15,368 bases of DNA from Promethearchaeota archaeon. GTDB lineage: Archaea > Asgardarchaeota > Lokiarchaeia > Sigyniarchaeales > SOKP01. A program made the position numbers and the translations under genes. Below are positions 10,381 through 14,876 of the stretch, piece by piece. Within the stretch, counting starts at the first letter, position 1. Each line of letters starts with the position of its first letter. The notes beneath the pieces are model-generated. The model was not told the DNA's origin. It ran no database searches and saw only the letters and a program-made list of their open reading frames with translations. The stretch lies in assembly GCA_048938025.1 (NCBI GenBank), contig JBHLMP010000067.1, forward strand, positions 1 to 15,368, in the 5' to 3' direction.

Positions 10381-10518
10381 TTATTCGATTTTTTCAAACA
10401 TATCTTTTCCAACACCACATACAGGACATGTCCAATCATCTGGTAAATCTTCAAATTTGGTACCTTCAGCCTCTTCATCATATACGTATCCGCAGGCTTG
10501 ACATTCCCATTTTCCCAT
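10381..10518 (-). CDS. rub: Rubredoxin (45 aa; absent from the ORF track)
   Basis: Manual translation gives [45 protein letters not shown], with SD AAGGAG upstream. Confidence 0.96.
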
Positions 10519-10611
10519 TAGAATCTCCTTAATTATTTTAATTTTAAAAATATTTATGGATTTAAATTTGAGTATTGTTAAAAATATTAATCTAATATTT
10601 TATAAAAATAT

Positions 10612-10752
10612 TTAAGATACTTTTTCGAACAACCTTTTAGACGTTTTACATCTAGGGCATTTAAACTTAGACTCTTCAATTTCTTCAAATGCTTTTTCAT
10701 GTTGTTCATCAATATAAAGGTACTTACACTTTTTACACCGATAGGTTGGAAT
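10612..10752 (-). CDS. Divergent rubredoxin-like CxxC...CxxC protein (46 aa), probable ATT start codon; absent from the ORF track
   Basis: Manual translation gives (M/I)PTYRCKKCKYLYIDEQHEKAFEEIEESKFKCPRCKTSKRLFEKVS*. SD GAGGTGA lies 6 nt before ATT. There is an in-frame TGA within the SD and no in-frame ATG/GTG/TTG before the first Cys. Confidence 0.8.
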   Translation of the reverse strand: MPTYRCKKCKYLYIDEQHEKAFEEIEESKFKCPRCKTSKRLFEKVS

Positions 10753-10924
10753 GTGTATTCACCTCTTTATTTGCGTTTGTTAACCTTTTTTAGACTTTAA
10801 ATTTAAGGTATTTAATATAATATACAAATTTTTAAAATGCAGTTAAATCTTTATTTTTAACTATTTTTATATTTTGAACTTTATATTATTTTAGAAATAT
10901 AAAGCCAATCTAAGATTCAAAATG

Positions 10925-12271
10925 TTAATCTTTTATTTTGAATTCATCTTTTGGAGCCCCACATTCAGGACATTTGAAATTATTAGGTAAATCTTTGAAA
11001 AGAACATCCATTTTAGCTTCATCATATAACATTCCACAATTTGAACATTCATATATGTTTACTTCTAAAAGTTTTCTAAGTTCATGTTTGTCTACATCTT
11101 CTTCCATTTTATTATATATATAAGAAATTGCTTTATTATCACCAAATAGAATAGCTCCTTTAAGCTTATTATCTTTTAAAACTATTTTTTGATAACAACA
11201 ATCTTTTTTATCAGCTTTTTTTAAAATATCCCATCCACCGCCCTCATCTTTGGTGGGATCGATGATTCCAATCGATGTTAAATCTATTCCAACGATTTTT
11301 AGAGTATTTTTTGGTGTAGTTCCTTCATATTCAACATTTTTTGCACCAATAATAGAAGCGGCGACTATTTTAGATTGTTCCATACATGCAGGAATAATTC
11401 CCCAAATTTGGTTTTTATACTCAATACAATCTCCAACCGCAAAAATATCTTTTTCACTTGTTTCTAAAAACTCATTAACAATAATTCCTCTATTCGTTTG
11501 AATTTTTGCTTCTTTAGCAATATCGATCGTAGCTACAATTCCTGCTTGAATTAAGATAATATCCGCAGCAAATACTCTTCCATCTTTTAATCTAATACCT
11601 GTTATCTTGTCATTTCCTAAAATCTCTTCGGTTGTAGCATTTAAAATGACTTTGATTCCACGATCTTCAATTTCTTGCTGTAACATATCGCCACATTCCT
11701 TATCTAATTGTTTTGGTAGTAATTGAGGGAAAAATTCTACAACTGTTGTTTCTAACACAATATCTTTTATTTGATTCGCTAATTCTAATCCAAGTAGACC
11801 CCCTCCAATAACAATTGCTTTTTTAGCCCGATTAATTTCAATATAATTTTTGATCTCTAAAGCATCATCAATGCTTCTTAATGTAAATACTCCTTTTTTT
11901 TGTTGATTCATAGCTACTGCATTTTTTATTGGGGGAATATTGGGAGTACTTCCCAATGCTAATAGTAACCTATCATATGAAATTGGGTTTACTTCCCCTT
12001 CAATAAATATTCTTTTATTAGCCGGATCAATTTTTTCAACTTTTTTCTTTAAATTTAACTTTAAATTTATATTTTCATACCAATCTTCCTTAAAAACAAT
12101 CAAATCCTCAATTTTTACCTTACCTGAGATCAATTCAGGTAATTTAATTCTTGTATAGTAAGGATAATTTTCTTGTGTGAATATCTCAATCTCTATTTCA
12201 TTATTAAGATATTTGATATTCTGCGCTGTAAATGTCCCGGCAACATTGTTTCCTATAATTACAACTTTCAT
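10925..12271 (-). CDS. NAD(P)H:rubredoxin oxidoreductase (NirB/NROR-like flavoprotein) with fused C-terminal rubredoxin domain
   Basis: IIGNNVAG, YTRIKL, LALGS, GVFTLRSIDDA, IGGGLLGLE, FAVGDC and LKIVGIDL; C-terminal YECSNCGMLYD...FKDLPNNFKCPECGAPKDEF. Confidence 0.9.
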   Translation of the reverse strand: MKVVIIGNNVAGTFTAQNIKYLNNEIEIEIFTQENYPYYTRIKLPELISGKVKIEDLIVFKEDWYENINLKLNLKKKVEKIDPANKRIFIEGEVNPISYDRLLLALGSTPNIPPIKNAVAMNQQKKGVFTLRSIDDALEIKNYIEINRAKKAIVIGGGLLGLELANQIKDIVLETTVVEFFPQLLPKQLDKECGDMLQQEIEDRGIKVILNATTEEILGNDKITGIRLKDGRVFAADIILIQAGIVATIDIAKEAKIQTNRGIIVNEFLETSEKDIFAVGDCIEYKNQIWGIIPACMEQSKIVAASIIGAKNVEYEGTTPKNTLKIVGIDLTSIGIIDPTKDEGGGWDILKKADKKDCCYQKIVLKDNKLKGAILFGDNKAISYIYNKMEEDVDKHELRKLLEVNIYECSNCGMLYDEAKMDVLFKDLPNNFKCPECGAPKDEFKIKD

Positions 12272-12295
12272 AAATGTTATAGTCTTACCATTTTA

Positions 12296-12308
12296 TTTTA
12301 AAGTTTTT
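12296..12308 (-). promoter_or_regulatory. Putative BRE/TATA promoter for the NROR gene (probably a leaderless transcript)
   Basis: Minus strand reads AAAAACTTTAAAA(T) about 25 nt upstream of ATG 12271; no SD is visible. Confidence 0.4.
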
Positions 12309-12396
12309 ATTATAAAATGTTAATCCTAGTGTAATTCGAGTTTGAATGAACATGTTCGAAATGAAAAATATATTCGAATCTCCATACTAAATAATT

Positions 12397-13208
12397 ATGA
12401 CAGAAGCAAAACCAAAAATGATCAATAGGAAAATTATTAAAATTGACGATGATCTTTGTACTGGTTGTGGAAATTGTGTAGTCGCCTGTGCAGTGGCATA
12501 AGACTTCCCGTATGTAGCATAAAAGGCGCACTACAAATCATCGATGGAAAAGCTAAAGTAGTAAATGAAATTTTCTGTGATGGATTAGGAGCATGTTTAG
12601 GAGAATGTCCTGTAGGAGCTCTTGAAATTATAGAAAGAGAGGCACTAGAATTTGATGAGGAAGCTGTTGAAAACCATTTAGAATCATTGAAATATAAGAA
12701 AAAAGTGATGAATGTTCATGAAGAACATACTGTAAAAGAAGAGACACTTCCCTGTGGTTGTCCCTCTTCAAAAACAATGGTATTTAGTGATCTTAAGGAA
12801 GAAACAGAGGTTGCTGGAAAAATCTCTTCAGCATTACGACAATGGCCTATTCAAATGCATTTAATCTCTCCAACAGCGCCATATTACCATGGGGCGGATG
12901 TTGTCCTTTCAGCAGATTGTGTTGCTTACTCGTATGGAGATTTTCATAGGGATTTTCTAAAGAATAAATCTATTGCTATTGCTTGTCCTAAACTGGATCA
13001 AGGTCGAGATATTTATATCGAAAAAATTAAAGTCTTGATAGATGACGCGAAAATTAACACTCTAACTGTTGCGATGATGGAGGTTCCTTGTTGTTCGGGA
13101 TTGTTAGCGTTAACCCAAGAAGCAGTTAAGAGAGCAAATCGAAAAGTTCCAATAAAATTTATTATCGTTGGCATACAAGGAGATATTTTAAAAGAAGAAT
13201 GGATCTAA
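12397..13208 (+). CDS. 4Fe-4S dicluster (ferredoxin-domain) Fe-S protein, split gene: join(12397..12493,12523..13208), 260 aa after splicing
   Basis: Exon 1 encodes MTEAKPKMINRKIIKIDDDLCTGCGNCVVACA and exon 2 encodes GALQIIDGKAKVVNEIFCDGLGACLGECPVGAL...CGCPS...LRQWPIQ...ADC...ACPKLD...MEVPCCSG. The exons total 97+686=783 nt = 261 codons, and the junction codon G|AA = Glu gives the expected CAEGAL. An alternative start is ATG 12418. Confidence 0.88.
12494..12522 (+). other. Putative 29-nt archaeal bulge-helix-bulge (BHB) mRNA intron
   Basis: Intron sequence UGGCAUAAGACUUCCCGUAUGUAGCAUAA. Exon-exon stem: 12477-12487 pairs with 12524-12535 (11 bp, C12529 bulged). Central 4-bp helix: GUGC 12488-91 with GCAU 12517-20. 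Three-nt bulges: AG^U (12492-94) and AA^A (12521-23). Intron stem: GCAUA/UAUGU closed by a G-A apposition. Confidence 0.85.
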
Positions 13209-13223
13209 TTTTTTTTTATTTTT

Positions 13224-13877
13224 TTAGAGTTCAAACATTACCTTTTTCTTAATTATCTTTCTCAGCATAACCGATAAGGCAGATTTAGATTTCCCTAGTT
13301 TATTAGCTAATTCTTCTAAGGATATATTTCTAGGGATCTCAAAAAAGCCTAAAGAAATTGCCTTATCAAGAACATTAGATTCATTATAAGTTAACTTATG
13401 TTTTTCATCCTCCAGGAGATAAGGAGATTTTCCAATCCTTAACAGTTCAAAATCAATATTTCTTTGCTCGAAAAGCGTCAATAATTGATCAATACTTTTT
13501 CTACTAGATATTAGACGCCAATAAGCATAACCATCTTTAACCCTCACTGGAAAATTTATAAGAACTCCACATTTAATTACGGCGTACAATAGATATGGGT
13601 CCTTGGTTTTAATGTTAAACTTAACTTTTTTATCTTCTTGCTCCAGAATGCTTAATTCAAATACAGATGGATGGTTTCTGATTTCCTGAATGATCGAATC
13701 TATTTTATAATGCATTATCTCAATTATTGAGTTTCCTATTGACTTTTCCAGATCATAAGGAAGAAAATATGAAATCTCCATTTTCATATCAGGAAAATTT
13801 TTAAAGAGATCTGAAATCCATAACTTATCTGGAAATTTTATCTTGATTCTAGCCAAGCTAGATTTACTTGAATCCAT
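13224..13877 (-). CDS. Archaeal transcriptional regulator with C-terminal HTH_10 (bacterio-opsin activator-type) domain
   Basis: C-terminal LTYNESNVLDKAISLGFFEIPRNISLEELANKLGKSKSALSVMLRK matches the family pattern LT..Q...L..A...GY(Y/F)..PR...L.ELA..LG.S..T....LR. Confidence 0.88.
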   Translation of the reverse strand: MDSSKSSLARIKIKFPDKLWISDLFKNFPDMKMEISYFLPYDLEKSIGNSIIEIMHYKIDSIIQEIRNHPSVFELSILEQEDKKVKFNIKTKDPYLLYAVIKCGVLINFPVRVKDGYAYWRLISSRKSIDQLLTLFEQRNIDFELLRIGKSPYLLEDEKHKLTYNESNVLDKAISLGFFEIPRNISLEELANKLGKSKSALSVMLRKIIKKKVMFEL

Positions 13878-13962
13878 CCTTAGATATTAGTGTATAAGAA
13901 TTTAAAACTTTTTTTTAGATATTAACAATATATAATTATATCATTAGCAAATTTGTATTAAA

Positions 13963-14562
13963 ATGGTTGAAAATCAGAATTTGTTATTAGGGATATGTGG
14001 AAGCCCAAGGAAACAAGGAACTGAGTATGCAGTCCAGTATGCTTTAAACCATGCTGCTGAAAAGTTTGGCTTTGAAACAGAATATTGGACTGTACGAAAT
14101 AAAGATATCAAGTTTTGTATTCATTGTGATTATTGTATTAGAGAGAAAAAAGGCTGTGTTCATGAAGATGATCTGCTAGAACTTTATCCAAAAATAGAGA
14201 TGGCTAAATTTTTACTCTTTGGAACACCTGTATTCCAAGGAAACTTATCTGGACAACTAAAAACGGTAATGGATCGATGTCGTGCATTAGTAGCAAAAAG
14301 TCCAAATGTATTAGAAGGTAAAGTTGGAGTGGCTTTAGCAGTTGGTGGAGATCGAAGTGGAGGGCAAGAAATTGCTATTAGAAGTATATTAGATTTTTAT
14401 CAACAAAACCATATTCACTCAGTCTCAGGTGGAGCTTTTGGAGCAAATTTAGGAGCAAGTCTGTGGAGTAGGGATATTGGTAAACAAGGTATCGAGCAAG
14501 ATGAAGAAGGTTTGAGGACAATTAGAAAAGTAATAAAAAAGTTATCAGAATTTAAAAAATAA
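13963..14562 (+). CDS. isf: Iron-sulfur flavoprotein (Isf; flavodoxin/WrbA-like FMN fold with compact 4Fe-4S motif)
   Basis: GICGSPRKQGT, CIHCDYCIREKKGC (CX2CX2CX6C), GTPVF, QLKTVMDRC and VGGDRSGGQE. Confidence 0.88.
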   Translation: MVENQNLLLGICGSPRKQGTEYAVQYALNHAAEKFGFETEYWTVRNKDIKFCIHCDYCIREKKGCVHEDDLLELYPKIEMAKFLLFGTPVFQGNLSGQLKTVMDRCRALVAKSPNVLEGKVGVALAVGGDRSGGQEIAIRSILDFYQQNHIHSVSGGAFGANLGASLWSRDIGKQGIEQDEEGLRTIRKVIKKLSEFKK

Positions 14563-14582
14563 ACAAAAAAGTTTAAAAAAAA

Positions 14583-14876
14583 TTATTTTACTCCAAATAA
14601 TTTCTTAGCCTCTTTTTCTCTGAGGCCAGAAATACCCCATAGCTCTTTAAACCAATATTTTCCTTTATGTATTACTACGGGGGTATTCACAATACATCCA
14701 TCAGCATCACAAAACGTTGTTAGAAAATTATCATCGTGTAATAAGTTATGTACAAATTCTTCATCATTTATATCTCGTTCAACGTATTTAACATCACGCT
14801 CATTCAGCCATTCTTTTAATTCCTTACAATGATGACAGTCTTCTTTTGTGATGATTATCGGTGTTTTTGCTTCCAT
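14583..14876 (-). CDS. Glutaredoxin/NrdH-like redoxin
   Basis: TKEDCHHCKELKEWL active site, YVERDI and cis-Pro motif NTPVV; extra CDADGC. Confidence 0.8.
   Translation of the reverse strand: MEAKTPIIITKEDCHHCKELKEWLNERDVKYVERDINDEEFVHNLLHDDNFLTTFCDADGCIVNTPVVIHKGKYWFKELWGISGLREKEAKKLFGVK

What the first reader, a model, noticed from the sequence alone, without database searches (positions are those of the whole stretch)
12477..12535. Bulge-helix-bulge intron (29 nt) interrupting a protein-coding Fe-S gene: candidate tRNA-endonuclease-spliced mRNA
Seen in sequence: the ferredoxin motif CTGCGNCVVACA (frame from 12397) meets TAA at 12499-12501, while its continuation GALQIIDGKAKV lies in another frame. 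The RNA folds into an 11-bp exon-exon stem (UGUAGUCGCCU / AGGCG-c-ACUACA), a 4-bp central helix (GUGC/GCAU) and two opposed 3-nt bulges (AGU and AAA), then an intron hairpin (GCAUA/UAUGU, with a G-A apposition next to the bulge, so slightly relaxed). Established: the archaeal splicing endonuclease EndA cuts after the second nucleotide of each bulge and RtcB ligates the exons. Applying that rule removes exactly 12494-12522 and creates G|AA = Glu, restoring both the frame and CAEGAL. Structure-based and protein-based junction predictions agree to the nucleotide. The well-established archaeal mRNA intron case is crenarchaeal cbf5. Inference: a BHB intron in a redox/Fe-S gene of a probable Asgard archaeon would extend mRNA splicing to a new gene class and lineage. 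Standard gene callers would hide it as a frameshift or a wrong N-terminus.
Basis: partly seen in the sequence, partly recalled or inferred. Interest (0 to 1): 0.96.

Follow-up and report, generated by a model that had tools for sequence, protein, structure and literature searches.

The report
Splicing-endonuclease intron inside an Asgard gene
A 29-base insert that splits an iron-sulfur protein gene of an Asgard archaeon has the shape and evolutionary behaviour of an intron cut out by the tRNA-splicing enzyme, which has so far been documented inside only one other archaeal protein-coding gene.

Summary
A 260-aa Fe-S protein gene is interrupted at 12494-12522 by 29 nt that carry an in-frame TAA and shift the frame. 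Uninterrupted Asgard orthologues read C-A-E-G-A-L exactly across the predicted junction.

The insert is genomic: contigs from 4 other runs in 4 studies bridge it without gaps. The same site carries a 29-nt insert, or 30 nt in one case, in 14 distinct sequences. [quoted passage not shown]
- The 4-bp central helix is invariant.
- 94% of cells are paired, against 27-48% in slid controls.
- 5 pairs show compensatory changes.

Further support:
- Exon-exon complementarity is raised only in insert-bearing alleles.
- Both exons are under purifying selection.
- Intronless alleles nest among intron-bearing ones, with the deletion exactly at the predicted junction.
- The genome encodes two EndA paralogues and RtcB, and 18 of its 32 detected tRNA genes are called with introns.

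No RNA data could be found, so splicing itself is inferred. My verdict is a new member of a known kind, a cbf5-like pre-mRNA BHB intron in a new gene and a new lineage. It occurs in 9 of 99 orthologue-bearing genomes of the family. Confidence is about 0.88 and interest about 0.7.

The parts
12397..12493 (+). Exon 1: ATG, 32 codons (MTEAK...CTGCGNCVVACA) and the first base of the Glu-33 codon. It holds the first CxxCxxCxxxC motif.
   Evidence: Fer4 family matches. It is kept with an ATG in 11 of 12 insert-bearing loci; the twelfth is cut by its contig end. pN is 0.00-0.09 against pS 0.07-0.85.
12494..12522 (+). The 29-nt intervening sequence, a candidate BHB intron.
12499..12501 (+). TAA stop in the exon-1 frame, inside the insert. 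Unspliced RNA would give a 34-aa peptide.
   Evidence: A stop in this frame inside the insert is present in all 12 loci.
12523..13208 (+). Exon 2: the last two bases of the Glu codon, then 227 codons (GALQIIDGK...EEWI) and the stop. It holds the second Cys motif and the C-terminal Cys-rich domain.
   Evidence: In one search, orthologues are 70-88% identical and carry the precomputed label PF27217.
12477..12487 (+). 5' strand of the outer exon-exon helix h.
   Evidence: 11 of 11 pairs form in the window, against 3-9 of 11 in 20 uninterrupted alleles.
12524..12535 (+). 3' strand of helix h, with C12529 bulged.
12488..12491 (+). 5' strand (GUGC, exon 1) of the 4-bp central helix H.
   Evidence: It is invariant and paired in 14 of 14 distinct sequences.
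12517..12520 (+). 3' strand (GCAU, intron) of the central helix H.
12492..12494 (+). 5' bulge AGU. The predicted cut lies between G12493 and U12494.
   Evidence: The rule was checked on tRNA-Ser(UGA), whose BHB reads CTTG[AGT]...CAAG[ATA].
12521..12523 (+). 3' bulge AAA. The predicted cut lies between A12522 and A12523.
   Evidence: In relatives the middle base is A, U or C.
12496..12500 (+). 5' arm of the intron hairpin h'. It is offset from the bulge by the G12495/A12516 apposition.
   Evidence: 94.9% of cells paired and 3 pairs with compensatory change. Four runs read 12498 as G, which keeps a G-U pair.
12511..12515 (+). 3' arm of the intron hairpin h'.

Best explanation
The 29 nt at 12494-12522 are an archaeal bulge-helix-bulge (BHB) intron inside the coding sequence of a 260-aa protein. 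That protein has a two-[4Fe-4S] domain and a Cys-rich C-terminal domain.

Proposed mechanism:
- In the primary transcript, the end of exon 1 pairs with the start of exon 2 (helix h) and with the 3' end of the intron (the 4-bp helix H).
- This presents two 3-nt bulges on opposite strands.
- The host's two-subunit splicing endonuclease EndA cuts after the second base of each bulge.
- RtcB joins the exons, creating the Glu-33 codon and a continuous frame. The intron is probably released as a 29-nt circle.
- Unspliced RNA can only give a 34-aa peptide.

Shown here: the insert, its genomic reality, the fold, its conservation and covariation, selection on both exons, precise absence in relatives, and the presence of the enzymes.

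Inferred: the cutting and joining themselves. Any regulatory role is unknown.
For: 1. Junction. Uninterrupted orthologues (P0004 at 88% identity, P0005, L001 and others) read C-A-E-G-A-L with 6 nt where the window has 35 nt. Only the cut pair predicted from the bulges gives Glu.

2. Not an artefact. Contigs of 4 runs from 4 studies span 12393/12421-12800, or 12300-12590, with 0 gaps. Their one difference, 12498 A>G, keeps the pair as G-U.

3. Recurrence at the same site.
- 2 of 19 Asgard-like loci inspected carry an insert.
- 9 metagenome loci were found with a pattern that constrains only the exons; 8 inserts are 29 nt and 1 is 30 nt.
- 7 of 400 phylum genomes match that pattern.
- 2 further genomes were found without the pattern, G183 and G173.
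- About 10 more public proteins are called at 244 or 240 aa with an N-terminus that reads through the insert.

4. Structure, on 14 distinct sequences.
- 94.0% of 350 cells are paired, against 26.9-47.7% when partners are slid.
- H is paired in 100% of cells.
- 5 pairs have compensatory changes (5-69, 12-63, 27-47, 28-46, 34-41).
- 0 of 500 shuffles reach the covariation score.
- In L084, L085, L095 and L105 the unconstrained MFE is essentially the BHB fold.
- In G173, whose protein is only 47% identical, the G/A apposition is a U-A pair. That allele is a strict hBHBh'.

5. Exon-exon pairing is specific to insert-bearing alleles. It is 11/11 in register A or 16/16 in register B, against 3-9/11 and 5-12/16 in 20 uninterrupted alleles. 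The synonymous sites of GTC, TGT, GCA and GGC at the junction are invariant in 9 of 9.

6. The 30-nt allele (L085) puts exon 2 in the exon-1 frame behind a TAA and puts a TAG in the other frame. Neither a -1 shift nor an upstream alternative start can rescue it.

7. Exon 1 is under purifying selection. pN is 0.00-0.09 against pS 0.07-0.85 over 36 pairs. The dicluster domain spans residues 14-65 of P0004, so neither exon encodes it alone.

8. Uninterrupted L015 and L017 nest with 100/100 support inside an insert-bearing clade. They keep the exon-2 codons typical of insert alleles, so the loss was precise.

9. Machinery.
- Two EndA-family genes are present. One is closest to A. pernix EndA chain B and keeps the His-containing stretch; the other lacks that His.
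- RtcB is present.
- 18 of 32 tRNA genes are called with introns.
- Passages of PMC5829648 say that Asgard archaea have the (alpha-beta)2 EndA with the L1 loop linked to broad specificity.
Against: - No RNA evidence of any kind exists. No RNA run holds the locus, so splicing is inferred.
- The window's own MFE does not form the central helix (-20.3 against -20.1 kcal/mol for the BHB fold). The fold z-score is only -2.42.
- The intron helix h' is offset by a non-pair in 13 of 14 sequences.
- The third pair of h (columns 16-58) is unpaired in 9 of 14 sequences.
- The central helix never varies, so it contributes no covariation.
- The 14 sequences fall into perhaps 4-5 intron types. The compensatory changes are therefore few events, and the shuffle control ignores relatedness.
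- Nine loci were retrieved with a pattern that fixes the exon-1 codons, which limits visible variation there.
- BHB-like motifs of equal score are common in this 29% G+C genome: 330 sites.
- A genome-wide search for other ORF-restoring BHB motifs showed no excess over shifted-junction controls. This would be a lone case in the genome.
Confidence: 0.88

Rival explanations
1. The insert is never removed. The gene is expressed as two products, a 34-aa peptide plus a 244-aa protein started at TTG 12474. Alternatively it is expressed through a programmed -1 ribosomal shift or a bypass, with about 10 insert-encoded residues inside the ferredoxin motif.
For: - The downstream frame is open from 12456 across the insert, and gene callers take it.
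- The frame stays open through the insert in the 29-nt alleles.
Against: - The 30-nt allele L085 has TAA in one frame and TAG in the other.
- The insert-encoded residues are not conserved (GIRLPVCSIK against DIKFDLYSIK), while the RNA pairs are.
- The TTG is simply part of the conserved Asn-Cys codons.
- I saw no slippery run on reading 12456-12499.
- The dicluster domain would be cut or disrupted.
- Exon-exon complementarity would have no reason to exist.
Confidence: 0.04
2. The gene is a pseudogene, inactivated by a small insertion that is inherited passively.
For: - The frame is broken and there is a stop in the insert.
- Only about 9 of 99 orthologue-bearing genomes of the family carry the insert.
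Against: - Both exons stay intact wherever the contig allows, and pN is far below pS.
- This holds across alleles whose exon-2 product is as little as 47-48% identical to the window's.
- No second lesion was seen in the 12 loci.
- The insert keeps its length and its structure while synonymous sites are near saturation.
Confidence: 0.03
3. EndA cuts the BHB, but the main outcome is control rather than plain constitutive splicing. Cleavage without efficient ligation would destroy the mRNA. Alternatively, splicing would be conditional and would gate production of this redox protein.
For: - In Haloferax a BHB intron in the 5' UTR of HVO_1309 affects expression (PMC7714728, passages).
- The gene sits among rubredoxin, rubredoxin reductase, FMN reductase and glutaredoxin-like genes and next to an HTH regulator.
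- The intron is retained although precise loss is evidently possible.
Against: - Nothing in the sequence data speaks to conditional splicing.
- Purifying selection on both exons requires that ligated mRNA is made.
- Most relatives do without the intron.
Confidence: 0.05

Closest known systems
The cbf5 pre-mRNA intron of Crenarchaeota (Watanabe 2002, Yoshinari 2006, Yokobori 2009). I saw passages of PMC2738675 and the citations in PMC7714728.
   Same: - A short BHB-type intron lies inside a protein-coding frame.
- The cleavage motif is partly relaxed.
- The host has a two-subunit EndA.
- Distribution is patchy, with gain or loss among close relatives.
- Gene callers misread the gene.
   Different: - The host gene is different: an Fe-S protein, not the pseudouridine synthase. 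cbf5 in this genome has an uninterrupted 337-aa frame.
- The lineage is Asgard, not Thermoproteota.
- The exon-exon helix is long, up to about 20 pairs.
- There is no experimental proof of splicing.
Archaeal tRNA introns with hBHBh', hBH or HBh' motifs, including the intron-rich tRNA genes of Asgard archaea (bioRxiv 10.64898/2026.10.13.758758, passages).
   Same: - The geometry and cut rule are the same. The genome's own tRNA-Ser(UGA) intron has an AG|U 5' bulge like this one.
- The enzymes are the same.
- By that preprint's rule (four central pairs plus one outer helix of at least 2 pairs) this site is 'canonical'.
   Different: - The substrate is an mRNA.
- The outer helix is built from codons of both exons, so RNA structure and protein sequence constrain the same bases.
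The BHB intron in the 5' UTR of Haloferax volcanii HVO_1309 (PMC7714728, passages).
   Same: It is an mRNA substrate of the splicing endonuclease.
   Different: That intron lies in the untranslated leader of a euryarchaeon. This one interrupts the reading frame, so splicing is obligatory for the protein.

Membership tests
Archaeal BHB intron (substrate of EndA) | [quoted passage not shown] | tested here: met
   GUGC/GCAU lies between the bulges AGU and AAA. The four pairs form in 14 of 14 distinct sequences.
Archaeal BHB intron (substrate of EndA) | At least one flanking helix of 2 or more contiguous pairs (hBHBh', hBH or HBh'). | tested here: met
   Helix h has 5 contiguous pairs next to the bulge in the window. 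Its first two pairs form in all 14 sequences. Helix h' is offset by one non-pair in 13 of 14 and is adjacent in G173.
Archaeal BHB intron (substrate of EndA) | The cuts in the bulges give a functional joined product. | tested here: met
   The predicted junction equals the sequence of uninterrupted orthologues. The rule reproduces the 37/38 intron of tRNA-Ser(UGA). The cut position as a general rule is recalled knowledge.
Archaeal BHB intron (substrate of EndA) | The host encodes the splicing endonuclease and an RNA ligase. | tested here: met
   There are two PF01974 genes, an alpha-like and a beta-like one. RtcB scores 566 bits.
Archaeal BHB intron (substrate of EndA) | The intron is absent from mature RNA, or a circular intron is detectable. 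| not testable with these tools
   No RNA run was listed for the locus.
Archaeal BHB intron (substrate of EndA) | EndA cleaves at the two sites in vitro. | not testable with these tools
   This needs a bench experiment.
cbf5 intron family | The intron sits in the cbf5 (TruB-family) gene. | tested here: not met
   The host gene is a ferredoxin-domain protein. cbf5 of this genome is uninterrupted. So this works like the cbf5 intron but is not a member of that family.
Group I or group II self-splicing intron | A ribozyme core of hundreds of nucleotides that matches the Rfam models. | tested here: not met
   The insert is 29 nt, and there is no Rfam match at E <= 1 in 12200-12800.
Programmed -1 ribosomal frameshift | A slippery site, with a frame relation conserved among relatives. 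| tested here: not met
   I saw no slippery run on reading the sequence. The 30-nt allele has a different frame relation and stops in both frames.

The most novel reading that the evidence does not exclude
The intron may be a mobile or recurrently transferred element rather than a relic. Its scattered distribution needs at least 4 changes on well-supported branches. It is also present in orthologues only 47-48% identical (genus g11) as well as in three clades of the window's own genus. This would reflect spread of a BHB intron between alleles of one gene in Asgard populations, by recombination or reverse splicing. The excised circle could also have a trans function. It is complementary in 19 of 20 nt to the RtcB ligase mRNA of the same genome.
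Probability: 0.12. Interest if true: 0.85.

Novelty: new member of a known kind. Interest (0 to 1): 0.7.

Why it matters
In the papers I could search, BHB introns that interrupt a protein-coding frame are described for one gene only, crenarchaeal cbf5, which has stood as the single case since 2002. A 2020 paper says so explicitly (PMC7714728). Six full-text searches found no report for Asgard archaea.

If confirmed, this would matter for four reasons:
- A second, unrelated gene in the closest archaeal relatives of eukaryotes would show that endonuclease-mediated mRNA splicing is not a cbf5 curiosity.
- It would offer a natural presence/absence polymorphism for studying intron gain and precise loss.
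- It is a clear case where codons on both sides of an intron are co-constrained by RNA structure.
- It exposes a systematic annotation error. Public databases hold these genes as 244-aa proteins with false N-termini.

Tried and rejected
RNA evidence. The look-up of sequencing runs listed no RNA holder, so expression and splicing could not be examined. Only DNA contigs were laid.

Genome-wide search for further coding-sequence introns in the organism's own genome. A BHB scan plus an ORF-merging filter gave 2164 candidates, against 2228-2420 when the junction was shifted by 1-2 nt. For high-scoring motifs the figures were 48 against 42-48. There was no excess. One look-alike on contig C84 turned out to be an intact gene. 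The scan had little power, so it does not show absence.

Local blastn and tblastn found no second copy of the intron and no paralogue carrying it.

Test of the cut rule. I removed BHB-rule introns from the 18 intron-called tRNA loci and asked aragorn for an intron-free tRNA. 17 of 18 passed, but so did most controls with the cuts shifted by 1 nt, so the test does not discriminate. Only the exact agreement for tRNA-Ser(UGA) is used.

Rfam gave no match.

The Pfam copy at hand has no model for the C-terminal domain; PF27217 appears only as a precomputed label. PDB sequence matches cover the ferredoxin domain only.

A bypass from GCA-TAA to the second GCA-TAA was considered and rejected, because the second copy is in the same frame and also ends in TAA.

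I looked for a target-site duplication flanking the insert and saw none.

The census was redone.

Supplementary files of the papers were not opened. The supplements of the 2026 tRNA-intron preprint could list non-tRNA BHB sites that I could not see.
Full report
WHAT IS IN THE SEQUENCE

The window holds an ORF 12397-12501 that reads MTEAKPKMINRKIIKIDDDLCTGCGNCVVACAVA and then stops. In another frame there is a 227-codon continuation, GALQIIDGKAKVVNEIFCDGLGAC...EEWI, from 12525 to 13205, with its stop at 13206-13208. Both pieces match 4Fe-4S ferredoxin families.

- Helix h: 12477-12487 with 12524-12535, 11 pairs, C12529 bulged.
- Helix H: GUGC 12488-12491 with GCAU 12517-12520.
- Bulges: AGU 12492-12494 and AAA 12521-12523.
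- Helix h': 12496-12500 with 12511-12515.
- G12495 faces A12516.

RNAfold finds h and h' but not H, at MFE -20.3 kcal/mol with z = -2.42; 6 of 200 shuffles fold as well. The full BHB fold costs -20.1 kcal/mol. On its own the fold is unremarkable.

THE PROTEIN JUNCTION

A search with exon 2 found thousands of relatives. The best are named Promethearchaeota, Hodarchaeota, Hermodarchaeota, Heimdallarchaeota or Thorarchaeota, and Promethearchaeota is a phylum of the kingdom Promethearchaeati.
- Most relatives are 260-261 aa and read ...CGNCVV[SA]CAEGAL[EQ][VI]IDGK.... That is exactly what removal of 12494-12522 gives.
- In an uninterrupted homologue one dicluster domain covers residues 14-62/65. 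The insert at codon 33 therefore cuts a single domain.
- Of the 120 proteins listed, 11 carry only the C-terminal domain label. These include the window's own database entry P0003 (244 aa). The other ten, at 244 or 240 aa, begin with residues such as MRSRLCSDIKFDLYSIKGAL. This is the wrong-frame reading of the end of exon 1 plus an insert, so the same interruption exists elsewhere and is routinely mis-called.

THE INSERT IS GENOMIC

No RNA run holds the locus. Contigs from four DNA runs in four studies other than the probable source bridge the insert without gaps:
- X2: 12300-12590.
- X3 and X4: 12393-12800.
- X8: 12421-12800.

Each has a single difference, 12498 A>G. This turns the A-U pair with U12513 into G-U.

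RELATIVES AT THE DNA LEVEL

- Of 19 Asgard-like loci inspected, L006 and L011 have 35 nt between the last Cys codon and the Gly codon. The others have 6 nt, or 9 nt where the match starts one codon later.
- A metagenome scan with a pattern that fixes only exon codons and allows a 14-44 nt gap returned 9 loci. All have an insert at this site; 8 are 29 nt and one (L085) is 30 nt.
- The same pattern matches 7 of 400 genomes of the phylum, counting the window's own. All are in one family: 6 of 134 genomes, in three genera.
- An orthologue is present in 99 of 135 genomes of that family.
- I looked at 8 further N-terminal regions chosen for short open frames. G183 and G173 also carry the insert, and the pattern had missed them. 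The other 6 are uninterrupted.
- Of 13 more regions, 12 are uninterrupted and one is cut by its contig end.
- So at least 9 of 99 orthologue-bearing genomes have the insert. I did not inspect the remaining rows one by one. Their open frames of 260 aa or more fit an uninterrupted N-terminus.

STRUCTURE ACROSS RELATIVES

On 14 distinct sequences (alignment A3), the named structure pairs 94.0% of 350 cells. With partners slid by 1-3 columns the figure is 26.9-47.7%.

| Helix | Cells paired |
|---|---|
| H (invariant) | 100% |
| h' | 94.9% |
| inner h | 90.2% |
| outer h | 94.0% |

- Five pairs show changes on both sides (5-69, 12-63, 27-47, 28-46, 34-41).
- 0 of 500 shuffles reach the covariation score or the number of such pairs.
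- Earlier counts on 10 distinct sequences gave 85.9% and 93.0% for two registers of the outer helix.
- The unconstrained MFE is essentially the BHB fold in L084, L085, L095 and L105.
- In G173, whose exon-2 product is only 47% identical to the window's, the G/A apposition is a U-A pair. That allele is a strict hBHBh'. The G-C pair 12-63 has become A-U through a Val-to-Ile change in exon 1 and a synonymous Leu change in exon 2.

Caveats:
- H never varies.
- Pair 16-58 is unpaired in 9 of 14 sequences.
- The sequences fall into only a few intron types.
- The shuffle control does not correct for relatedness.

THE EXONS CARRY THE RNA CONSTRAINT

- Insert-bearing alleles pair 11 of 11 positions (window, register A) or 16 of 16 (six alleles, register B) of the exon-exon helix. 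Twenty uninterrupted alleles reach 3-9 of 11 and 5-12 of 16.
- Among 9 insert alleles the synonymous positions of the GTC, TGT, GCA and GGC codons at the junction never vary. Typical conserved-residue codons elsewhere show pairwise identities of 0.2-0.8.
- Uninterrupted alleles use GGA, GGT or GGG there in 11 of the 13 printed.

BOTH EXONS ARE USED

- Eleven of 12 insert-bearing loci keep exon 1 with its ATG; the twelfth is cut by its contig end. All 12 keep a stop inside the insert. Exon 2 is intact wherever the contig allows.
- For exon 1, pN is 0.00-0.09 against pS 0.07-0.85 in 36 pairs. Exon 2 behaves alike.
- This rules out a decaying pseudogene.
- The 30-nt allele rules out a -1 shift and an upstream alternative start as general explanations. 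There exon 2 shares the exon-1 frame but lies behind TAA, and the other frame meets TAG.

HISTORY

In a maximum-likelihood tree of 44 exon-2 products, the 19 insert-bearing rows are interspersed with uninterrupted ones.
- The tree needs 10 changes, and well-supported branches force at least 4.
- L015 and L017 are uninterrupted. They sit with 100/100 support beside L084 and L086 and keep the GGCGCGCTCGCA exon-2 wording of insert alleles.
- This looks like a recent deletion exactly at the predicted junction.
- The pattern is the one described for cbf5 (PMC2738675, passages).

MACHINERY

- The genome is 3.52 Mb in 88 contigs with 29.3% G+C.
- It has two PF01974 genes. One (201 aa) is closest to A. 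pernix EndA chain B (E = 2.4e-35) and aligns EHSPF with DHAPF. The other (200 aa) has KDSAKF where the M. kandleri enzyme has EHSKY.
- That this His is catalytic is recalled knowledge, not a result of a call.
- RtcB is present.
- aragorn tRNA genes, 18 of them with introns. For tRNA-Ser(UGA) the BHB rule used here returns exactly aragorn's 19-nt intron at the canonical position.
- Passages of PMC5829648 state that Asgard archaea have the (alpha-beta)2 enzyme with the L1 insert tied to broad specificity.
- Passages of the 2026 preprint report two EndA paralogues in 44 of 60 Asgard genomes. They define 'canonical' BHB as four central pairs plus one outer helix. This site meets that definition.

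CHANCE

- The organism's own genome holds 92,582 BHB-like sites under my loose rule. This site ranks 329th.
- Sites of that quality occur about once per 21 kb of single strand, so the motif alone proves nothing.
- The chance of one at a given position and length is about 5e-7. Here the position and length are fixed independently by the orthologues.

COMPARISON AND NOVELTY

The mechanism is that of cbf5 pre-mRNA splicing in Crenarchaeota and of tRNA intron removal. It is not a member of the cbf5 intron family, because the host gene differs and cbf5 here is uninterrupted.
- A 2020 paper states that cbf5 is the only reported additional BHB intron besides the HVO_1309 leader it describes (PMC7714728, passages).
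- Six full-text searches returned no report of such an intron in an Asgard protein-coding gene.
- The 2026 Asgard tRNA-intron preprint does not contain the word mRNA.
- I did not see supplements, and the library lacks most subscription journals.

VERDICT

This is a real feature and very probably an EndA/RtcB-spliced intron in an mRNA. It is a new member of a known kind, in a new gene and a new lineage, and it is polymorphic among close relatives. Splicing itself remains to be shown.

Noticed in passing
window 12503-12522 and G000:C68:33844-33863: The loop and 3' half of the intron match 19 of 20 nt on the strand opposite to the RtcB ligase gene (C68:33115-34422, minus strand). The excised intron would therefore be antisense to RtcB mRNA. 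E = 0.03 in a local blastn-short run, so this may be chance.
   Followed up: no
window 10381-14876: The interrupted gene sits in a redox cluster: a rubredoxin-like ORF (10381-10518, minus; judged by eye from its two CxxC pairs, not searched), a rubredoxin reductase with a fused rubredoxin (10925-12271, minus), an HTH_10 regulator (13224-13877, minus), an FMN reductase (13963-14562, plus) and a glutaredoxin-like protein (14583-14876, minus).
   Followed up: partly
L085:4164-4237: One metagenome allele has a 30-nt insert instead of 29 nt, with one extra base in the hairpin loop region. A length that is free to change by one base fits removal at the RNA level and no translational rescue.
   Followed up: yes
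L105 (G173:C266:2370-2670) and L095 (G169:C17): Orthologues whose exon-2 product is only 47-48% identical to the window's, from another genus of the family, carry a 29-nt insert at the same codon. G173 has a strict hBHBh' and a UG|A 5' bulge.
   Followed up: yes
whole genome G000: aragorn finds only 32 tRNA genes, and 18 are called with introns, several at odd positions. The true set is probably larger and more interrupted than this tool can see.
   Followed up: partly
G000:C68:18733-19074: The cbf5 (TruB_N) gene of this genome lies in an uninterrupted 337-aa frame, so the classical archaeal mRNA intron is absent here.
   Followed up: yes
P0018: One 244-aa database protein reads ...LYNIKGAL where the others read ...LYSIKGAL. 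That implies a change in the GCAU strand of the central helix.
   Followed up: no
window 12304-12317: An A+T-rich stretch, TTTTTATTATAAAA, lies about 80 nt upstream of the ATG in the 125-nt gap between the divergent genes. It looks like an archaeal TATA box. This is read from the sequence only.
   Followed up: no
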